From a virus, in IMG/VR virus record IMGVR_UViG_3300043570_002836, positions 32,512-96,511 of that record: a DNA stretch of 64,000 nucleotides; one strand, written 5' to 3'. The notes beneath the pieces were generated by a model. It made no database searches, had not been told where the DNA came from, and saw nothing but the letters and a program-made list of their open reading frames with translations. This document shows, one piece after another, positions 9,441 to 53,720 of this stretch (its first letter is position 1; each line of letters starts with the position of its first letter). The translations under genes and the position numbers were made by a program.

Positions 9441-11477
9441 ATGATTGAATCTGTAGAAAATAGTGGTAAAGGTAAAAAAGGTGATTCATCAACTCCTGTT
9501 TTAGATAACTTTAGTCGTGATTTAATTAAATTGGCTGAGGAGGGTAAATTAGACCCTGTAATCGGTCGTGATAGGGAGATTAATAGAATCGCCCAAATTT
9601 TATCAAGACGTAAGAAAAATAACCCAATTATTATTGGTGAACCAGGTTGTGGTAAAACTGCGATAGTTGAGGGATTGGCGATTAAAATTTACAACAACGA
9701 ATGTCCAAGAAATTTAATGGATAAAAAAATCGTATCGTTAGATATGACTTCAATTGTTGCAGGTACAAAGTATCGTGGTCAGTTCGAGGAAAGGATGAAA
9801 GTAATTATTGAAGAATTACAAACAAACCCAAACATTATTGTATTCATTGATGAGATACATACAATTGTTGGTGCTGGTAATTCATCAGGTTCAATGGATG
9901 CGTCTAATATCTTTAAACCCGCATTAGCAAGGGGTGAGATTCAATGTGTCGGAGCAACAACATTAGATGAATACCGTAAAAACTTTGAGAAAGACGGAGC
10001 GTTAGAAAGACGTTTCCAAAAAGTTATTGTTGACCCAGCGACCAAAGAAGAAACTTTTGAAATTCTTAAAAACGCTAAAGACAAATATGAAAATTACCAC
10101 AAAGTAGTTTATAGTGATGAGGTATTAACATTGTGTGTTGATTTGGCGGAAAGATATATTACGGATAGAGAATTTCCTGATAAGGCGTTTGACATCTTAG
10201 ATGAGGTTGGGGCTCGTAGTCAAGTTGAAGTTAAAATTCCTGATGAAATTGAGAAACTTAAATTAGAAGCTCTTGATATTAAACAAGAAAAATTGGATGT
10301 TGTAAAACGTCAAGATTACGAAGAGGCCGCTAATCTAAGAGATAAAGAAAAACGTATTCTAAACAAATTAGAAACTGAGAAAAAGAAATTTGAGGAAGAA
10401 CTAAATCAACAACGTAAAGAAATTAGTACTGAACTTGTTTATGACGTAGTTTCAAACATGACCAAAATTCCAATTTCTAAATTAAACGCTGATGAGACAA
10501 AATCATTAAGTGAAATGGAAGGTAATTTAAATGATAAAGTTATTGGTCAACCTGAAGCGGTTTCCAAAATTGCTAAATCAATTAGACGAAATCGTTTAGG
10601 GATTAAGGACCCGAACAAACCAATTGGCTCATTTATTTTCCTTGGTTCAACAGGTGTTGGTAAAACTCACTTAGCAAAACAATTAGCCAAACAAATTTTT
10701 GGTACTGAAGATGCGTTAATCAGAATTGATATGTCGGAATATCAAGAGAAACATAATATCTCAAGATTAATCGGTTCACCTCCAGGATATGTTGGTCACG
10801 AAGAAGGGGGACAATTAACCGAACAAGTTAAAAACAAACCTTACTCAGTGATTTTATTTGATGAGGTTGAGAAAGCGAACAAAGATATTTTCTCAACATT
10901 ACTTCAAGTACTAGATGATGGTCACTTGACAGATAGTTTAGGTAGAAAGATTAATTTCAAAAACTGTGTAATCATTATGACTTCAAATATTGGGGTTAGA
11001 AAATTACAAGATTTTGGAACAGGTATCGGATTTGGAACATCGGCAAAAACTTATGTTGAAGAAGAACAAAAACGTGATATGTTGAAAAAAGAACTTCAGA
11101 AGTTTTTCGCTCCTGAATTCTTAAACCGTATTGATGAGATTGTTGTATTCAAAAGTTTAAATCGTGAGGATGTTAAGAAAATAGTTCTATTGGAAGTTGA
11201 AAGATTACAAAAACGTTTAACAGGATTAAAATACAACTTCACATTTGACGAATCCGTTATTGATTTAATTTCTGAGGTTGGTTACGATGAAATATACGGT
11301 GCAAGACCTTTGAAAAGAGCTATCCAAGATAAGATTGAGGATTATATCTCAGAAGAAGTGTTGAAGGGTACTTTAGTGGAGAATGTTTTATACCGATTAA
11401 TTGTGATTGATAAAGAAGTTAAAATTGAAGAAGATAAACCTGTAAAAAAAGGTAGAAAGAAAAAGGGGGTTGAATAA
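9441..11477 (+). CDS. clpC: ClpC-type AAA+ chaperone/protease subunit lacking the N-terminal Clp repeat domain
   Basis: Two AAA modules (GEPGCGKT/FIDEIH; GSTGVGKT/LFDEVEK), UVR-like coiled coil QDYEEAANLRD, ClpP-docking IGF loop (GIGFG). Confidence 0.9.
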   Translation: MIESVENSGKGKKGDSSTPVLDNFSRDLIKLAEEGKLDPVIGRDREINRIAQILSRRKKNNPIIIGEPGCGKTAIVEGLAIKIYNNECPRNLMDKKIVSLDMTSIVAGTKYRGQFEERMKVIIEELQTNPNIIVFIDEIHTIVGAGNSSGSMDASNIFKPALARGEIQCVGATTLDEYRKNFEKDGALERRFQKVIVDPATKEETFEILKNAKDKYENYHKVVYSDEVLTLCVDLAERYITDREFPDKAFDILDEVGARSQVEVKIPDEIEKLKLEALDIKQEKLDVVKRQDYEEAANLRDKEKRILNKLETEKKKFEEELNQQRKEISTELVYDVVSNMTKIPISKLNADETKSLSEMEGNLNDKVIGQPEAVSKIAKSIRRNRLGIKDPNKPIGSFIFLGSTGVGKTHLAKQLAKQIFGTEDALIRIDMSEYQEKHNISRLIGSPPGYVGHEEGGQLTEQVKNKPYSVILFDEVEKANKDIFSTLLQVLDDGHLTDSLGRKINFKNCVIIMTSNIGVRKLQDFGTGIGFGTSAKTYVEEEQKRDMLKKELQKFFAPEFLNRIDEIVVFKSLNREDVKKIVLLEVERLQKRLTGLKYNFTFDESVIDLISEVGYDEIYGARPLKRAIQDKIEDYISEEVLKGTLVENVLYRLIVIDKEVKIEEDKPVKKGRKKKGVE

Positions 11478-27361: not shown

Positions 27362-27482
27362 AGTCGTAATGTTTTTAAATATTAAGTCGCGGGGAATCCA
27401 TCTGCCGCTTATTACTAGAATCTTGTGGTTTACTTACTATAGTTCATACCGTTACCACTAGGAAACCCAACTTAATATTTTG

Positions 27483-27554
27483 TAGCCCCTGTAGGACTCG
27501 AACCTACACTATTTTGTATGTAAAACAAACACTTTTCCTTTAAGTTAAGGAGCT
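27483..27554 (-). tRNA. tRNA-Val(TAC)
   Basis: TTTGT-TTTACAT-ACAAA. Confidence 0.85.
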
Positions 27555-27562
27555 AATTATTG

Positions 27563-27637
27563 TGTCCCCGACAGGAATCGAACCTGTGACCCTTCCATTA
27601 AAAGTGGAATGCTCTAAACCAACTGAGCTACGAGGAC
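27563..27637 (-). tRNA. tRNA-Lys(TTT)
   Basis: TTCCA-CTTTTAA-TGGAA. Confidence 0.92.
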
Positions 27638-27648
27638 ATTTTTTTAAG

Positions 27649-27722
27649 TCGGAATGGTAGGGTTCGAACCTACGACCTTTCACGTATCAGGCGAATGCTC
27701 TAACCAACTGAGCTACATTCCG
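27649..27722 (-). tRNA. tRNA-Ile(GAT)
   Basis: TTCGC-CTGATAC-GTGAA. Confidence 0.92.
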
Positions 27723-27729
27723 TTATTTT

Positions 27730-27804
27730 TGGTCGGGGTAGCAGGTGTCGAACCTGCCGCCTCTTGGTCCCAAACCAAGCGTCTCTCCCCAAGACTATAC
27801 CCCG
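27730..27804 (-). tRNA. tRNA-Pro(TGG)
   Basis: CTTGG-TTTGGGA-CCAAG; CCA encoded. Confidence 0.9.
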
Positions 27805-28200
27805 TTATTTTGTTTTTAAGATATCCCCCAACTTCTTTACACGATTTTTGAAAGTTGTGTTGTAGAACTTTTCAAAATCTTGTTTAAGGTAGTTGAATCT
27901 GATATCACACCCATTTTTTAATTCTTTGTATGTGGAACCCCAATTCATCCCATCATTTACCATATCAATAACCAAGATTCCTACAGATAAGTTAGTAACA
28001 TTCCCAACCCATATTGATATCTTCAATTCAGGGTTATATAAACCTCTACCATAAGATTCACCTCTTGGGTCAATAACAAAACCTCTTTTTTTGAACTCAT
28101 CTAAAATGAAAGTTACCATTTCAGGTTTTAAACCTGATTGAATAGATTTAATCTCGTTATTTAATCCTTGAACTTTAGTTATTTTGTCTGTAGTTGTCAT
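27805..28200 (-). CDS. Hypothetical protein inside tRNA array B
   Basis: 131-aa ORF with its own TAGATTTG promoter (28229-28236); stop abuts tRNA-Pro. Confidence 0.65.
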   Translation of the reverse strand: MTTTDKITKVQGLNNEIKSIQSGLKPEMVTFILDEFKKRGFVIDPRGESYGRGLYNPELKISIWVGNVTNLSVGILVIDMVNDGMNWGSTYKELKNGCDIRFNYLKQDFEKFYNTTFKNRVKKLGDILKTK

Positions 28201-28280
28201 ATGTATGGGTTTATCGTTGTTTGTCTTACAAATCTACGAAATCATTTCCATTCTCACAACACTTTTGTTATTTTTTTTTG

Positions 28281-28350
28281 TACCGAGTATGGGTTTCGAA
28301 CCCACTTGACCATCCTTATGAGAGATAGTTCTTTTCCTTTAAGCCTCGGT
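28281..28350 (-). tRNA. Atypical tRNA-CAT (probably elongator Met) with shortened D-arm region
   Basis: TATCT-CTCATAA-GGATG; T-arm GTGGG-TTCGAAA-CCCAT; acceptor ACCGAG/CTCGGT. Confidence 0.65.
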
Positions 28351-28357
28351 GTTTCTG

Positions 28358-28445
28358 CGGAAGATGTAGGGTTCGAACCTACGCATCATATTTCAGACCT
28401 ACTTGTTTAGCAAACAAGCCTCTTTACCGATTTGAGTAATCTTCC
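28358..28445 (-). tRNA. tRNA-Ser(GCT)
   Basis: CTTGT-TTGCTAA-ACAAG; long variable arm. Confidence 0.9.
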
Positions 28446-28485
28446 AAATTATACCGACCTAGCTCGGTATCACACATCGGATACG

Positions 28486-28557
28486 TAGTCCCCCAAGGAC
28501 TCGAACCTTGACAATAACATCCGTAGTGTTAAGTGCTATCCATTACACCAAGGAACC
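28486..28557 (-). tRNA. tRNA-Arg(ACG)
   Basis: TAACA-CTACGGA-TGTTA. Confidence 0.9.
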
Positions 28558-28613
28558 AAATTATTAGGTCAGGACCTAATAATCACTCATTATTAGGTTT
28601 TAACCTTATATTG

Positions 28614-28688
28614 GGAGTATAGTGAGATTTGAACTCACCCTATTATCACCACAAAATAACGTGCTCAACCACTGACACTATATACTCC
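28614..28688 (-). tRNA. tRNA-His(GTG)
   Basis: TTATT-TTGTGGT-GATAA; G-1:C73. Confidence 0.88.
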
Positions 28689-28766
28689 ATAAAAACCCCA
28701 CTTCATCAGCTTAACGGACTGACTGCCATATCGGAGGTGGGGGTATCCTGTTAATTCAGGACCTCG

Positions 28767-28839
28767 TGGGACAGGAGAGAATCGAACTCTCATTGCTTGT
28801 TCTTCAAACAAGTGCCTTGACCAACTTGGCAACTGACCC
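28767..28839 (-). tRNA. tRNA-Phe(GAA)
   Basis: CTTGT-TTGAAGA-ACAAG. Confidence 0.88.
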
Positions 28840-28848
28840 AATTTATTG

Positions 28849-28921
28849 TTGTCCCACAAGGGTTCGAACCTCGACTCTTCTGTACCAAAAACAGACGTGT
28901 TGCCAATTACACTATAGGACA
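28849..28921 (-). tRNA. tRNA-Gln(TTG)
   Basis: TCTGT-TTTTGGT-ACAGA; U1-A72. Confidence 0.9.
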
Positions 28922-28927
28922 GTGAGA

Positions 28928-29053
28928 TTACTTTTGTAATCTTTTTAATAATTTTTTAATTAACTTAAATTTGATTTTAATCCCTTTAGGTTCTTGTCTC
29001 AAAAACACTCGACTTGATTCGAATGTTCCTGTTAATACTTCTTTTCTTTTCAT
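28928..29053 (-). CDS. Small basic peptide (41 aa)
   Basis: MKRKEVLTGTFESSRVFLRQEPKGIKIKFKLIKKLLKRLQK, read by hand. Confidence 0.35.
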   Translation of the reverse strand: MKRKEVLTGTFESSRVFLRQEPKGIKIKFKLIKKLLKRLQK

Positions 29054-29072
29054 AATTTATTTTTCTTTTTTG

Positions 29073-29155
29073 CGGAAGACAGAGGAATCGAACCCCTAAA
29101 GCTTTTACACCCAGCTGATTTCAAGTCAGTGTCCTCGTCCATTCGGGCGCCTTCC
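29073..29155 (-). tRNA. tRNA-Ser(TGA)
   Basis: ACTGA-CTTGAAA-TCAGC; long variable arm. Confidence 0.9.
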
Positions 29156-29243
29156 GTATTTTTATCTTTACCAATATGTCAAAGAACTTTTCATTTTACA
29201 AAGTTACATTTTTTATTTTGTAACTTCCTAATTTTTATTCCAT

Positions 29244-29274
29244 AAAAAAACCCCCGAACTTTTGGTTCAGGGGT
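29244..29274 (-). terminator. Attenuator terminator upstream of tRNA array B
   Basis: ACCCCTGAAC-CAAAA-GTTCGGGGGT followed by a U-tract. Confidence 0.85.
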
Positions 29275-29300
29275 CTTACTAAATTAATATACGTTTATAT

Positions 29301-29420
29301 TTAACTTAATATGTTTTCTGAACCATATGACATGCTAAACCACATCGGATACGATACGCAACAAACGCGAATCTGTTTCGATGGACTTACTTGTTTAATA
29401 TGTTGTTCAGTTGCTCTCAT
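29301..29420 (-). CDS. Putative leader peptide of tRNA array B (MRATEQHIKQVSPSKQIRVCCVSYPMWFSMSYGSENILS)
   Basis: 39-codon ORF behind a TAAATTTG promoter box (29447-29454); codons 6-32 match the array B anticodons; contains TGGTTCAG, complementary to the terminator 5' arm. Confidence 0.82.
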   Translation of the reverse strand: MRATEQHIKQVSPSKQIRVCCVSYPMWFSMSYGSENILS

Positions 29421-29490
29421 TTTTTTTATTCTTTAATATATATCTACAAATTTAGTAAAAGTTTGTTGAATGTCAATGTTTTTTTAAATT

Positions 29491-48293: not shown

Positions 48294-50165
48294 CTATTTC
48301 ACTTCTTCAAATTCTACATCAGAAACATCGTTTGTGTCATATGATTCATTAGTAGGTTCTTGATTAGATTTATTATAAAGGTTCTCACTGATTGATTGGA
48401 ACTTAGTATTAATAGATTCAATCTTAGAATCTAAAATAGTTATTTCTTTTTTCTCAACTGACTCCTTCAAACTAGTAATAAGTTCATTAATATCTTTTTT
48501 ATCGTCTTCAGAAATTTTATCATCTAAATCTTTTAATGACTTTTCTGATTGGAAGATTGTCGTGTCAGCCTTATTGATTAATTCAACCTCTTCTCTTGCT
48601 TTTTGGTCAGACTCGGCGTTTAATTCAGCGTCGGCCTTCATTCTTTCAATTTCTTCTTTAGATAAACCTGAAGACGCTTCAATTTTAATTGATTGTACTT
48701 TGTTAGTTCCTTTATCCAATGCTGATACGTTAATGATACCGTTAGCATCTATGTCAAAGGTCACTTCTATCTGTGGGACCCCTCTTTGTGATGGTGGGAC
48801 ATCAGTTAATTGGAATTTACCAATGGTTTTATTGTCGCTAGCCATGGCTCTCTCACCTTGTAGTACATGGATATCAACACTTGGTTGATTATCAACTGCC
48901 GTTGAGAATACTTGTGACTTTTTAGTTGGAATTGTTGTGTTTGACTCTATTAATTTAGTGAATATACCACCCATAGTTTCAATACCTAATGATAATGGGG
49001 TAACATCTAATAAAAGTACGTCTTTAACGTCACCAGCTAACACACCACCTTGGATAGCGGCACCTAACGCAACTACCTCATCAGGATTTACCCCTTTTGA
49101 AGGTTCTTTACCGAAGAAACTCTTAACTGCATCCTGAATAGCGGGAATTCTTGTTGTACCACCAACTAAAATAATTTCATCAATGTCAGTTATTTTAATA
49201 CCAGCGTTTTTTAACGCATTTTTACACGGTTCAATTGTTCTCTTAACTAAATTATCAACAAGTTGTTCAAATTTAGATTTTGTTAAAGAAACCACTAAAT
49301 GTTTTGGAATTCCATCAACAGGGATTAAGTATGGTAAGTTAATTTCAGTTGATGATGATGATGACAACTCAATTTTCGCTTTCTCAGCCGCCTCTTTTAA
49401 TCTCTGAAGAGCCATTGGGTCTTTACTTGGGTCAACACCGTTCTCTTTCTTAAACTCATCAATTAAAAAGTTGATAATTGTTTGGTCAAAGTCATCCCCA
49501 CCTAAATGTGTGTCACCATCTGTAGATAATACTTCAAATACACCATCACCTAACTCAAGAATTGAAACATCATGGGTTCCACCACCGCAATCGAATACTA
49601 CAACTAACATATCTTGGTTTTTCTTATCAAGACCGTAAGCCAATGCTGCCGCGGTTGGTTCGTTGATGATACGTCTTACAGTTAAACCCGCAATTTCGCC
49701 AGCTTCTTTGGTTGCCTGACGTTGAGCGTCGTTAAAATGAGCGGGAACTGTAATAACCGCTTCAGTAACTGTTGTTCCCAAGTAATCTTCGGCAGTTTTT
49801 TTCATTTTTTGTAGAATAGTTGCGGAAATCTCCTGTGGAGAATAATCTTTACTCTCAATTTTCACTCTAGGTGAGTTATTCTTACCTTTTATCACTTCAT
49901 ATGGTACTTTCCCTATTTCTGACTTAGATTCGTCAAATGTAGTACCCATAAATCGTTTAATAGAATATACCGTTTTAGTGGGGTTAGTTACAGATTGTCT
50001 TTTTGCGGGGTCACCTACCTTTCTTTCAGATTCGTTAATATATCCAACAACTGAAGGTGTTGTTCTTTTACCTTCACTGTTAGGGATTACCACAGGTTCC
50101 CCATTTTCCATAACCGCCACACATGAATTTGTGGTTCCTAAATCAATACCAATAATTTTACTCAT
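48294..50165 (-). CDS. dnaK: Hsp70 chaperone DnaK
   Basis: [46 protein letters not shown]. Confidence 0.97.
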
Positions 50166-51596: not shown

Positions 51597-53720
51597 TTAT
51601 TTTATTTTTATTTTCATTTTTGTACCTGTTTCATTTTTCTCACAGGTAATACTAAATCCATGTTCTTCCAAAATCGCCACACAAATATTTAGACCCAAAC
51701 CAGTTCCTGATTCTTTTTGACCTTCTTTTCTAGTGTAAGGTTTTGATAACTCATCAAAATCTTTTTGGTTAATCCCTCGACCATTATCTTGTATATTCAG
51801 AGTATCACCTTCAAAATAAATTTTAACAAATTTAGTGTCCGAATCATTATACTTTAAACCATTTCTAATCAAGTTGTCAACTGCGGTACAGAATAGAGGT
51901 TCGTTTACCTCAATAGTTGGTAATTCGTCAATAATAACTTGACTAATATATGCCGTTGATAATAAGTAGTCAGTTAGAATCATTTTTAAATCACATTCGG
52001 TTTTGTTTAATACAACATCTTTCTTTACAAGATTGGTAAATTCGTAAACTCCTTTATAAACTTTTTGTGAGTGTTTAAGACCTTCCTTAATCATTTTAAG
52101 TGGGGCTTCGATTTTAAGATTAGTAATATCTTCTTGAGTTAATCTTCTTTCTAATGAGTTAACACCTCTTGGGATGTAAGTATTAATCCCTGAGTGCATA
52201 TCGTGTCTTAATATCTTTGCCGCGTGTTCTAAATACGTGTTTTTCTTTTCAATTTCTTTCTTTTGTTCGTGAGAGTTGGTAATATCTGTGGCTATTTTCA
52301 TAACACGATAAATTTTACCATCTATACCAACAATTGGATTATAAGTCGCCTGCAAATACACTAAGGTCCCATCTTTTTTAGTTCTATTAATTTCCCCTGA
52401 GAATAATATACCTTCTTTTAATTTTTCCCAAAAAACACGATACTCATCACTATTTAAGTCATCATCTGAGATAAACATACTATGGTGTTTTCCGACTATT
52501 TCATCCTGTGATGAATAACCCATAGTATTTAAAAACAATTCATTAGCAAAAAGAATATTTCCATCTAAATCAAACTCAATCACTGCATTAGATTTATTAA
52601 TTGCGTTCATTCTATTACGAATTTCAAGTTCCTTTTTTTTCAGTTCGGTAACATCTTGTCTAATTGATGAAAAACCTTCTAATTTTTGTTCTTTGTCAAA
52701 TAATGCTTTGATGTATGTGTCAACATAATACAGTTCACCTGTTTTTGTTTTATTAGTAACAACATCATTCCATATTTTACCTTTTAATACTTTGTCATAC
52801 ATCTTACCCCAATATCCGTCAGGTTGTGAATCGGAATTAACGATACTATGGTCTTTACCCTTCACATCTTTTAATTTCCAACCCGATACCTCTTCAAATT
52901 TAGAGTTTACGTGAGTTATTTTTCCTTTGTTGTCAGTAATTGAAACAATCGCCGCTTCATTTATGAATTTTTCAGTTTCTATATTTCTTCTCGTTAAATC
53001 ATTACTTTCTTTAACCCAACATGAGAATGAGTAAGTAGACGATAATAATTGAGAAAACTCTAGTTCAGATTTTTTCCACTCACGAGGAGTTAAACTTTCA
53101 ATACATATAACACCAATGACTTCCCCCTTAAAAATAATTGGAACATCCAACATAGATTTTATACCAAGAGGTTTTAGATATGTTTCAGTAAAACAAGAAG
53201 TTGCGGTATGTGTTTTGGCATCATTGGCAACAATTACAGGGTTAATTAAAAGAGCTAAAAAATATGGTTTGAAATCTTTCTTGTTTAGTTTAATGTCTTG
53301 GTACCAAGTGTCTTCTGATTTAACATATAGTTGTTCACATATAATTGAAGTTTTATCGTGATTATATAACCATATAGAACATCTATCCGTATTCATTGTT
53401 TCAGATACTTCTTTAGTTAAAACTTTAGCACCTTCAGAAGTGTTACCTTCATAAAACAAAGTATTATGTGATTGAGAAATTAATACTTCAGTTAATTTTA
53501 CACTATATTTTGATTCAGTATCAATTTGTTTGTTTTTTTTCAAATATTCATTAATGAAGACCATTAAACTTAATACGATTAAACCTTTTGTGTAAAAACT
53601 AAAATGGATTATATTCTCAGTGACTAAGATTAATTCTGTGTAAATTAATACGTGCATTAAGAAAAAAGATAATAACCCAACTACACCAATGGTTAACGAA
53701 ATTCTAGATAATTTATTCAT
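51597..53720 (-). CDS. Sensor histidine kinase (2TM-GAF-PAS-PAS-HisKA-HATPase)
   Basis: H-box ILRHDM, N-box NLIRNGLKY, G1 DNGRGI, G2 GTGLGL; two PAS/PAC repeats; GAF (DRCSIWL...GIKSMLDVPI). Confidence 0.92.
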   Translation of the reverse strand: MNKLSRISLTIGVVGLLSFFLMHVLIYTELILVTENIIHFSFYTKGLIVLSLMVFINEYLKKNKQIDTESKYSVKLTEVLISQSHNTLFYEGNTSEGAKVLTKEVSETMNTDRCSIWLYNHDKTSIICEQLYVKSEDTWYQDIKLNKKDFKPYFLALLINPVIVANDAKTHTATSCFTETYLKPLGIKSMLDVPIIFKGEVIGVICIESLTPREWKKSELEFSQLLSSTYSFSCWVKESNDLTRRNIETEKFINEAAIVSITDNKGKITHVNSKFEEVSGWKLKDVKGKDHSIVNSDSQPDGYWGKMYDKVLKGKIWNDVVTNKTKTGELYYVDTYIKALFDKEQKLEGFSSIRQDVTELKKKELEIRNRMNAINKSNAVIEFDLDGNILFANELFLNTMGYSSQDEIVGKHHSMFISDDDLNSDEYRVFWEKLKEGILFSGEINRTKKDGTLVYLQATYNPIVGIDGKIYRVMKIATDITNSHEQKKEIEKKNTYLEHAAKILRHDMHSGINTYIPRGVNSLERRLTQEDITNLKIEAPLKMIKEGLKHSQKVYKGVYEFTNLVKKDVVLNKTECDLKMILTDYLLSTAYISQVIIDELPTIEVNEPLFCTAVDNLIRNGLKYNDSDTKFVKIYFEGDTLNIQDNGRGINQKDFDELSKPYTRKEGQKESGTGLGLNICVAILEEHGFSITCEKNETGTKMKIKIK

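What the first reader, a model, noticed from the sequence alone, without database searches (positions are those of the whole stretch)
29244..29454. Array B leader: 27 consecutive codons drawn only from the 13 amino acids of the downstream tRNAs
ORF 29420-29301: atg aga gca act gaa [caa cat att aaa caa gta agt cca tcg aaa cag att cgc gtt tgt tgc gta tcg tat ccg atg tgg ttt agc atg tca tat] ggt tca gaa aac ata tta agt taa. The bracketed run contains Q,H,I,K,V,S,P,R,C,Y,M,W,F, which is all 13 amino acids of array B, with both Ser boxes (AGY and TCN), and none of A,G,L,N,T,D,E. At its end, TGGTTCAG (29325-29318) is the perfect 8-nt complement of CTGAACCA (29270-29263) in the terminator's 5' arm and loop. 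A ribosome stalled in the run would leave this antiterminator free, while one passing it would mask it.
Basis: partly seen in the sequence, partly recalled or inferred. Interest (0 to 1): 0.9.

Follow-up and report, generated by a model that had tools for sequence, protein, structure and literature searches.

The report
Leader-peptide attenuator gating phage tRNA array
In front of this phage's block of tRNA genes sits a 39-codon mini-gene, written almost only in the codons those tRNAs read and joined to a switchable transcription stop; the phage probably reads through into its tRNA genes when ribosomes decode those codons slowly, a trp-operon-style control I found no published account of for tRNA genes.

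Summary
ORF 29420-29301 (minus strand) has 27 consecutive codons (29405-29325) that are all cognate to the tRNAs of the array downstream. This is the longest such run in any frame of the 96.5-kb contig. The 8-nt antiterminator/terminator complement is also real.

Comparison turns the anecdote into a pattern. In about 30 non-redundant phage contigs, mostly with Bacteroidota-type promoters, the layout is the same: promoter, 22-40-codon ORF, hairpin, intrinsic terminator, conserved box, tRNA array.
- Leader codons track their own array: 266 of 381 codons in 12 families against 182±14 when arrays are permuted. Own leaders cover 98% of array tRNA types.
- The match holds at isoacceptor level.
- The antiterminator covaries with the terminator arm.
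- In several lineages there is no room for a promoter between terminator and array.

Best reading (about 0.7): a ribosome-operated attenuator that senses the supply of the array's tRNAs.

Caveats for this window: a promoter-like motif lies downstream of the terminator; at equilibrium the terminator wins, so control must be kinetic; the Met tRNA is non-canonical; nothing has been tested experimentally.

The scan has reported the same device on other genomes. I found no published description.

The parts
29447..29476 (-). Promoter P1 of the leader. It has a TTGACA-like upstream element (29476-29471) and the -7 type motif TAAATTTG (29454-29447), which fits the TAnnTTTG consensus of Bacteroidota promoters (my own knowledge of that consensus).
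   Evidence: (consensus scan) and the sequence. A TAnnTTTG motif lies 25-35 nt upstream of the leader ATG in most related loci.
29421..29441 (-). A-rich 5' UTR without a Shine-Dalgarno sequence.
   Evidence: Only 5 of 75 long ORFs of this genome have an SD-like motif, and their upstream regions are 50% A, so SD-less initiation is the norm here.
29301..29420 (-). Leader ORF of 39 codons plus a TAA stop.
   Evidence: The frame is kept in diverged relatives, and every gap placed inside the ORF is 3 or 9 columns long (multiples of three). A homologous ORF lies at L001:9993-10109:+.
29325..29405 (-). Core run: codons 6-32, all cognate to array-B tRNAs. All 14 decoding units are present by codon 28.
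29318..29325 (-). Antiterminator 5' strand (region 2), TGGTTCAG. Its last base lies 14 nt upstream of the first base of the stop codon.
29277..29311 (-). AU-rich hairpin between region 2 and the terminator. Its 5' arm holds the last codons and the stop codon. It would stack under the 2:3 helix and is melted by a terminating ribosome.
   Evidence: It appears in the MFE structure. One search counts 15 pairs, 3 of them with compensatory changes among 4 distinct close relatives, with 98% of this helix's cells paired.
29263..29270 (-). Antiterminator 3' strand (region 3), CTGAACCA. It covers 6 nt of the terminator's 5' arm and 2 nt of the loop.
29244..29273 (-). Intrinsic terminator: 9-bp stem, 5-nt loop and a T7 tract.
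   Evidence: -14.2 kcal/mol. The identical sequence occurs in six IMG/VR contigs.
29199..29224 (-). A hairpin (GTTACA / TGTAAC) that overlaps a second promoter-like motif, TAACTTTG (29206-29199), the candidate P2.
   Evidence: Relatives keep the pairing with changed bases, seen by eye in the sequences. Lineages L001, L091, L185, L190, L179 and L191 have no such element.
29170..29186 (-). Conserved 17-nt box about 15 nt before the first tRNA. It resembles boxA only by recall.
25953..29155 (-). tRNA array B, interspersed with ORFs: Ser-UGA, Gln, Phe, His, Arg-ACG, Ser-GCU, a CAU tRNA-like element, Pro, Ile-GAU, Lys, Val, Cys, Trp and two Tyr. It is bounded downstream by the next leader and terminator.

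Best explanation
This is a ribosome-operated transcription attenuator placed in front of a phage tRNA array.

How it would work:
- Transcription starts at P1 and the 39-codon leader is translated.
- The core of the leader (codons 6-32) is a roster of the codons read by the tRNAs encoded downstream.
- If any of those aminoacyl-tRNAs is scarce, the lead ribosome stalls in the core. Region 2 (29325-29318), the hairpin 29311-29277 and region 3 (29270-29263) then stay free. They fold into an antiterminator before the terminator's 3' arm is made, and RNA polymerase reads on into the array.
- If decoding is fast, the ribosome reaches the last codons or the stop. There it sits on or between regions 2 and 3 and melts the hairpin. 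The terminator forms and P1 transcripts end at 29244.
- The net effect is negative feedback on the supply of exactly those tRNAs.

Shown by sequence and comparison: the architecture, the kept reading frame, the codon-to-array correspondence and the antiterminator covariation.

Inferred: translation of the leader, stalling, and conditional read-through.

In this window a second promoter-like motif downstream of the terminator probably gives basal array transcription, so the attenuator would add a conditional component.
For: 1. Architecture. Promoter, short ATG ORF (22-40 codons), stop, 22-37 nt spacer, intrinsic terminator, conserved box and tRNA array recur in about 30 non-redundant IMG/VR loci of many leader families. 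The window has the layout twice.

2. In L001, L091, L185, L190 (twice), L179 and L191 the terminator ends 12-16 nt before the box. No promoter motif lies between them, so the array can only be transcribed through the terminator.

3. Codon-to-array match.
- For 23 leader-array pairs, 471 of 703 codons are cognate. Free permutation of arrays gives 317±22; permutation within leader type gives 397±12. None of 100,000 permutations reaches the observed value.
- With one pair per family (12 families), 266 of 381 codons match against 182±14. Own leaders cover 98% of the array's units against 73% for permuted arrays, p<=5e-6.

4. Isoacceptor level. Where an array holds only one box of Leu, Ser, Arg or Ile, leader codons fall 89:15 in that box (57 expected). 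In the window, leader B uses ATT and CGC in its core, matching Ile-GAU and Arg-ACG in array B. Leader A uses ATA and AGA, matching the second CAU tRNA (tRNA-Ile-UAU in relatives) and Arg-UCU in array A.

5. Independent partitions. In L212 and L197 the amino acids are divided differently between two arrays, and each leader follows its own array (L212:1235-1324:+, L197:135-239:+). tRNA-Asn lies in the other array in L003, and Asn codons shift between the two leaders accordingly.

6. Antiterminator. In 20 of 27 leaders the best 7-10-bp complement to the terminator's 5' arm is stronger than at least 95% of shuffled controls (p<=0.05), and in most of them it lies at the ORF's 3' end, within about 16 nt of the stop. 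Own pairings sum to -203 kcal against -128±10 for swapped arms, p<=1e-5.

7. Window folding. Before the 3' arm exists, the 2:3 helix has probability 0.97 with no ribosome or with one stalled at codons 8-27. It is 0.00 with the A site at codon 32 and 0.44 at the stop. Several relatives switch terminator probability from about 0 to about 1 between 'stalled in core' and 'at stop' even at equilibrium.

8. Hold-out set. In 5 new leader clusters from metagenome contigs, the true pairing is the best of all 120 permutations.
Against: - There are no expression, ribosome or termination data.
- In this window a TAnnTTTG motif (29206-29199) lies between terminator and array, and another (28236-28229) lies inside the array. 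Part of array transcription is therefore likely independent of the attenuator.
- At equilibrium the full window leader keeps the terminator (P 0.99) in every ribosome state. The antiterminator (-12.3) is weaker than the terminator (-14.2). It also leaves three C of the 5' arm free as a toehold.
- Most amino acids appear as one or two codons. Classical attenuators use tandem runs, so sensitivity to a single tRNA is uncertain.
- No conserved anti-antiterminator (region 1) was found, so an untranslated leader would default to read-through.
- Counter-examples exist. L185 has nearly the leader of L091 but a different array (17 of 36 cognate). The L190 leader has Lys, Phe and Cys codons without those tRNAs in the called array. 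The closest relatives carry a non-cognate Thr at codon 30.
- Related leaders and arrays are inherited together, so permutation p-values overstate independence. The family-level test reduces this but does not remove it.
Confidence: 0.7

Rival explanations
1. The unit is an independent small gene, either a peptide or a small RNA with its own promoter and terminator, that merely travels next to tRNA arrays. The array is transcribed from its own promoter downstream of the terminator.
For: The window and its close relatives have a promoter-like TAnnTTTG between terminator and box. The unit is conserved almost base for base among close relatives while the flanks diverge, and substitutions in the ORF run 5 non-synonymous to 1 synonymous. 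The hairpin 29311-29277 shows RNA-level covariation.
Against: This reading does not explain why leader codons track the tRNA content of the array, down to codon boxes. It does not explain why a segment of the ORF always complements the terminator's 5' arm. It also does not explain how arrays are transcribed in lineages with no room for a promoter after the terminator. Peptide sequences are poorly conserved between families, while frame and composition are kept.
Confidence: 0.1
2. It is an attenuator, but a generic gauge of translation speed or transcription-translation coupling rather than a sensor of the particular tRNAs. On this view the codon roster is a by-product, for example because leader and array were both shaped by the same host tRNA shortfalls.
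For: Most tRNA types are represented by only one or two codons. Some leaders use 17 or more amino acids. L185 keeps its leader although its array differs. No region 1 was found.
Against: Within one genome the two leaders use complementary codon sets that follow their own arrays. That partition differs between lineages (window against L212/L197). Long ORFs of the same phage are only 50% array-B-cognate. The split-box result also argues against it.
Confidence: 0.15
3. The match arose by chance or from skewed composition.
For: The run was picked post hoc, and the Met assignment depends on a weak tRNA-like element.
Against: It is the longest run in the genome in any frame, and the only small ORF that covers all 14 units. 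The pattern is replicated in other families and in a hold-out set.
Confidence: 0.02
4. A direct RNA-tRNA sensor of the T-box kind, in which uncharged tRNA binds the leader RNA and stabilises the antiterminator without translation.
For: It would also link the leader sequence to tRNA identity.
Against: No T-box or other known leader family reached threshold in Rfam. The ATG, the frame, the in-frame indels and the stop position are all conserved. Many different codons are listed rather than one specifier.
Confidence: 0.03

Closest known systems
Multivalent leader-peptide attenuators of enterobacterial amino-acid operons (ilvGMEDA: Ile/Leu/Val; thr: Thr/Ile; also trpL, hisL, leuL, pheL). This is textbook knowledge, not tested here.
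   Same: A short translated leader, an intrinsic terminator, a mutually exclusive antiterminator that overlaps the terminator's 5' arm, and ribosome position as the switch. The sensed quantity is the supply of aminoacyl-tRNA for the leader's codons.
   Different: The regulated genes are tRNA genes, not biosynthetic enzymes. The leader lists up to 14 decoding units, mostly once or twice each, instead of tandem runs of one to three amino acids. No conserved 1:2 anti-antiterminator was found. The element is phage-borne, in SD-less genomes with Bacteroidota-type promoters. It has no sequence or Rfam relationship to those leaders (His_leader 19 bits against a threshold of 49).
pheST and other aminoacyl-tRNA synthetase operon attenuators, and T-box riboswitches
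   Same: They control translation-apparatus genes by premature termination that reports tRNA charging.
   Different: T-boxes bind tRNA directly and need no ORF. Here there is a conserved ORF and no T-box signature. The targets here are the tRNAs themselves.
Anabaena sp. PCC 7120 trn L-array (PMC8421152; PMC10272220)
   Same: A horizontally spread tRNA array whose expression rises when translation is impaired.
   Different: Control there is at the promoter, through direct repeats over the -10 box and TSS bound by a repressor (TrcR). Neither paper mentions a leader peptide, attenuation or a terminator.
rrn/lambda boxA antitermination element
   Same: The 17-nt box before the first tRNA resembles boxA (CTCTTTAACA-type core, recalled from memory). 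It sits at the head of a stable-RNA operon.
   Different: It lies downstream of the terminator in question, so it cannot act on it. In bacterial genomes the 17-mer occurs at about chance frequency and never next to a tRNA or a 16S start in the 120 loci returned. BoxA identity is not established.

Membership tests
Leader-peptide (ribosome-mediated) transcription attenuator | A promoter followed by a short translatable ORF in the leader transcript. | tested here: met
   P1 motif at 29454-29447, an A-rich 5' UTR, and an ATG ORF of 39 codons. The ATG, the frame and the ORF's position are kept across families, with in-frame indels. Translation itself cannot be tested with these tools.
Leader-peptide (ribosome-mediated) transcription attenuator | An intrinsic terminator between the leader ORF and the regulated genes. 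| tested here: met
   Terminator at 29273-29244, with a 9-bp stem and T7 tract at -14.2 kcal/mol. It is present in 33 of 47 loci where the box is followed by a tRNA.
Leader-peptide (ribosome-mediated) transcription attenuator | An antiterminator mutually exclusive with the terminator, supported by covariation. | tested here: met
   Pairing of 29325-29318 with 29270-29263. The test of own against swapped arms over 17 distinct arms gives p<=1e-5.
Leader-peptide (ribosome-mediated) transcription attenuator | Regulatory codons in the leader that correspond to what is being regulated. | tested here: met
   A run of 27 cognate codons, supported by permutation tests and a split-box test.
Leader-peptide (ribosome-mediated) transcription attenuator | Stop-codon and antiterminator geometry such that a ribosome that finishes the leader blocks the antiterminator. 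| tested here: met
   Region 2 ends 1-16 nt before the stop in most leaders. Masked folding of the window leader agrees. The ribosome footprint size is an assumption.
Leader-peptide (ribosome-mediated) transcription attenuator | An anti-antiterminator (region 1:2 pairing) that gives termination without translation. This is a trp-type feature and is not universal. | tested here: not met
   The best upstream partner of region 2 is no better than shuffles in most leaders. The window has a CTGAAC copy at codons 4-6, but with p=0.23.
Leader-peptide (ribosome-mediated) transcription attenuator | The regulated genes depend on read-through, with no promoter of their own after the terminator. | tested here: inconclusive
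   Not met by motif in the window, which has TAACTTTG at 29206-29199. Met in L001, L091, L185, L190, L179 and L191, where the terminator lies 12-16 nt before the box.
Leader-peptide (ribosome-mediated) transcription attenuator | Read-through responds to the supply of cognate aminoacyl-tRNA. | not testable with these tools
   This needs reporter assays, in vitro assays or Term-seq.
T-box riboswitch and known Rfam leader families | A match to the family covariance model. | tested here: not met
   Nothing reached a gathering score over 28200-29480. The best hit was rnk_leader at 27.9 bits against a threshold of 50, driven by the terminator.
boxA (NusB/NusE-dependent antitermination site) | The same element heads the host's rRNA operons. 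| tested here: inconclusive
   The 17-mer is common before phage tRNA arrays. In bacterial genomes it occurs at roughly chance frequency, and none of 120 hits lay next to a tRNA or a 16S start. Diverged host versions were not searched.

The most novel reading that the evidence does not exclude
Roster-coded leader peptides are a general phage device for monitoring the host's decoding capacity one tRNA species at a time. When the host depletes or cleaves particular tRNAs (anticodon nucleases, stress, codon-usage mismatch), the ribosome stalls on the matching codon of the leader. The phage then switches on the array that carries the replacement tRNAs. Each array has its own leader listing its own contents, and leaders co-evolve with tRNA gain and loss.
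Probability: 0.35. Interest if true: 0.95.

Novelty: new variant of a known kind. Interest (0 to 1): 0.88.

Why it matters
Why phages carry tRNA arrays, and how those arrays are expressed, are open questions. A leader that lists the array's codons in front of a switchable terminator would mean that phages measure tRNA supply directly and make tRNAs on demand.

It would extend classical attenuation in three ways: from amino-acid biosynthesis to the decoding machinery itself, from one to three sensed amino acids to more than a dozen, and to SD-less Bacteroidota-type systems.

It also gives a simple, testable sequence rule, leader codons equal array anticodons. That rule can be used to define transcription units of tRNA arrays in uncultured phages. 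It could also be used to build synthetic sensors of individual tRNA pools.

Tried and rejected
- **Phage database.** A DNA search of the INPHARED phage collection found no match. A protein search with the upstream 888-aa glycosyltransferase-domain protein found only weak Staphylococcus phage tarP hits. No annotated relative is available.
- **PHROGs.** Nothing was found for the leader peptide or for most of its neighbours.
- **Rfam.** No known leader or riboswitch family reaches threshold.
- **Terminator 3'-arm pattern.** Apart from the two related groups, it returned only unrelated terminators.
- **13-nt box pattern.** It seemed to give mostly random hits. Many of them were later shown to carry the full 17-mer.
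- **Scan of bacterial genomes with the 17-mer.** Hits were at chance level and none lay beside a tRNA or 16S. This gave no host assignment and no support for a boxA identity.
- **MAFFT alignment of diverged leaders (A1).** It misregisters the terminator arms by one column, so I did not use it for pair counts. I used per-sequence duplexes and the own-against-swapped test instead.
- **A trp-like region 1.** Not supported.
- **Equilibrium switching in the window leader.** Not seen. Only the co-transcriptional intermediate switches.
- **Literature.** Six searches for leader-peptide control of tRNA genes found nothing.

Full report
**What is in the window.** The contig is 96.5 kb with about 31% GC. 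It is a phage: it encodes a T4-type large terminase, along with DnaK, a ClpB-like ATPase and a histidine kinase. All 23 tRNAs that ARAGORN calls lie on the minus strand between 23942 and 28921. Rfam adds a weak tRNA-Ser(UGA) at 29155-29074 and a non-canonical CAU tRNA-like element at 28350-28281. The latter is the positional homologue of a tRNA-Met that ARAGORN calls in a relative.

The reported ORF (29420-29301), its 27-codon run, the terminator (29273-29244) and the 8-nt complement (29325-29318 with 29270-29263) are all exactly as described.

**Is the run more than chance?** Codons cognate to array B are 50% of the codons in the phage's 75 long ORFs, where the longest run is 14. The run of 27 is the longest in all six frames of the contig. 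The runners-up lie in an acidic low-complexity repeat. Among 540 small ATG ORFs, this is the only one with a run of 15 or more and the only one containing all 14 decoding units.

**Relatives.** Six IMG/VR contigs carry the identical terminator and an almost identical leader. A more distant group (L001-L003, 68% identity in the neighbouring protein) keeps a 38-codon ORF in the same place. Its sequence is different, its indels are in frame, its terminator arm has changed, and the upstream segment has changed to match that arm.

A conserved 17-nt box sits just before the first tRNA. Using it as a probe returned more than 112 phage loci. In 47 non-redundant loci the box is followed within 70 nt by a tRNA, and in 33 of these an intrinsic terminator lies upstream. 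Every one of those has a short ATG ORF of mostly 22-40 codons. That ORF starts 15-57 nt (mostly 25-40) after a TAnnTTTG-type promoter motif where one is present, and ends 22-37 nt before the terminator.

The window has the unit twice. The second copy is the ORF 25316-25248 with the terminator 25216-25188, in front of array A.

In L001, L091, L185, L190 (both arrays), L179 and L191 the terminator ends 12-16 nt before the box. There is no promoter motif between them, so transcription of those arrays has to pass the terminator.

**Do leaders list their arrays?** I split Leu, Ser, Arg and Ile into their codon boxes, giving 24 decoding units. I scored every non-start leader codon as cognate or not to the ARAGORN tRNAs between that leader and the next one.
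- For 23 representative pairs, 471 of 703 codons are cognate. Free permutation of arrays gives 317±22, and permutation within leader type gives 397±12. None of 100,000 permutations reaches the observed value.
- With one pair for each of 12 leader families, the figures are 266 of 381 against 182±14.
- On average 98% of an array's units occur in its own leader, against 73% for permuted arrays. Both results have p<=5e-6.
- Where an array holds only one of two codon boxes for an amino acid, leader codons fall 89:15 in that box, against 57 expected from genome usage. The match is therefore to tRNA species, not just to peptide composition.
- Cognate codons are concentrated in the core (74%). The first three codons (52%) and the stretch that encodes the antiterminator (58%) are less cognate.

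Lineages with a different division of amino acids between arrays give independent support. In L212 and L197, one leader follows the Phe-Lys-Val-Trp-Arg-Cys-His-Ile-Met-Thr-Asp-Ser-Glu array. The other follows the Leu-Arg(UCU)-Pro-Asn-Tyr-Ile(UAU)-Gly-Gln-Ser(GCU) array.

tRNA-Asn sits in array A in the window, where leader A has five Asn codons and the core of leader B has none. It sits in array B in L003, where leader B has three Asn codons and leader A has two.

A hold-out sample from metagenome contigs gave only five new clusters. The true pairing is the best of all 120 permutations.

**RNA switch.** In 20 of 27 leaders the best 7-10-bp complement to the terminator's 5' arm is stronger than at least 95% of shuffled controls, at -8.9 to -17.3 kcal/mol against -9 to -16 for the terminators. 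In most it lies at the 3' end of the ORF. Across 17 distinct terminator arms, the own pairings sum to -203 kcal/mol against -128±10 for swapped arms (p<=1e-5). The segment ends 1-5 nt before the stop in most leaders of the array-A type, and 6-16 nt before it in most leaders of the array-B type (13 nt in the tool's count for the window).

In the window family, a 15-bp AU-rich hairpin (29311-29277) lies between the two antiterminator strands and contains the stop codon. It keeps pairing through three compensatory changes among four distinct sequences.

Folding the window transcript up to the terminator loop gives the antiterminator a probability of 0.97 with no ribosome, or with one stalled at codons 8-27. 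The probability is 0.00 with the A site on codon 32 and 0.44 at the stop.

With the full terminator present, equilibrium favours the terminator in all states. Control in this lineage would therefore have to be kinetic, and three C of the 5' arm remain free as a toehold.

Other lineages (L091, L185, L183, L050, L034, L212, L197, L138, the second leader of L003) do switch at equilibrium between 'stalled in the core' and 'at the stop'. A trp-like region 1 is not supported.

**Translation signals.** Only 5 of 75 long ORFs have an SD-like motif, and regions upstream of start codons are A-rich. Together with the TAnnTTTG promoters, this points to a Bacteroidota-type host (my knowledge of that consensus). 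It also means the SD-less, A-rich leader 5' UTR is normal here.

**Caveats specific to this window.**
- A TAnnTTTG motif (29206-29199), overlapping a conserved hairpin, lies between terminator and box. Another (28236-28229) lies inside the array. Part of array expression is therefore probably independent of the attenuator.
- The Met assignment is weak.
- The closest relatives have a non-cognate Thr at codon 30.
- L185 and L190 show imperfect matches.
- No expression data could be obtained.

**Prior knowledge.** Six full-text searches found no account of leader-peptide attenuation of tRNA genes. The nearest published case is the Anabaena trn array, which is induced by translational stress. It is regulated at its promoter by a repressor, and the papers mention no leader peptide or attenuation. 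This scan has reported the same device on other phage genomes. I did not rely on those notes for the tests above.

Noticed in passing
window 25184-25361 (minus strand): A second leader unit sits in front of array A: an ORF at 25316-25248, an antiterminator segment around the stop, a terminator at 25216-25188, a canonical TTTG-N20-TAGATTTG promoter, and a box variant at 25116-25104. Its codons 3-17 are cognate to array A (Asn, both Leu boxes, ATA-Ile, Arg-AGA, Thr, Glu, Gly, Asp).
   Followed up: partly
window 29170-29186; many loci: A conserved 17-nt box lies 8-20 nt before the first tRNA of arrays in more than 112 IMG/VR contigs. It looks like boxA, but in bacterial genomes it occurs only at about chance frequency and never beside a tRNA or 16S in the loci returned. 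Its function is unknown; it could be an antitermination site or a processing site.
   Followed up: partly
window 29406-29398 and the same position in other leaders: The nucleotide motif AACATAT lies 12-20 nt after the leader ATG in both leader families, where it encodes Lys/Gln-His-Ile/Met or Asn-Ile. It also resembles the core of the 17-nt box. In the leaders of the array-A type it puts a His codon where no His tRNA follows. It is unexplained.
   Followed up: no
window 29074-29155 and 28281-28350 (minus strand): ARAGORN misses two tRNA-like genes: Ser(UGA), which scores only as a weak tRNA-Sec-like Rfam hit, and a CAU element with an aberrant D-arm region. The CAU element is conserved in L014 and is the positional homologue of tRNA-Met in L013.
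   Followed up: partly
window 29199-29224 (minus strand): A hairpin (GTTACA / TGTAAC) overlaps the P2-like motif. Relatives keep the pairing with changed bases (TACAAA/TTTGTA in L013; TACGAA/TTCGTA in L014). This suggests either an RNA structure in read-through transcripts or an operator.
   Followed up: no
window 28229-28236 and the ORFs inside the array (28200-27805, 27361-26954, 26568-26074, 25984-25382): Array B is interrupted by protein genes and an internal TAGATTTG promoter motif. The ORF 25984-25382 has a DOT1-like methyltransferase domain (Pfam 2.5e-16) and a weak PHROG hit to a tRNA methyltransferase. In relatives L014 and L138, a box with its promoter precedes tRNA-Pro at the corresponding place.
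   Followed up: no
L185:8584-8797 against L091:9356-9572: The two leaders are nearly identical but the arrays differ in content. L185 lacks the Asn, Lys, Thr and Gly tRNAs that the leader lists. This may be a recent rearrangement that the leader has not yet followed.
   Followed up: no
window 9441-11477, 48294-50165, 51597-53720: The phage encodes a ClpB-like double AAA+ ATPase, a full-length Hsp70/DnaK and a GAF-PAS histidine kinase.
   Followed up: no
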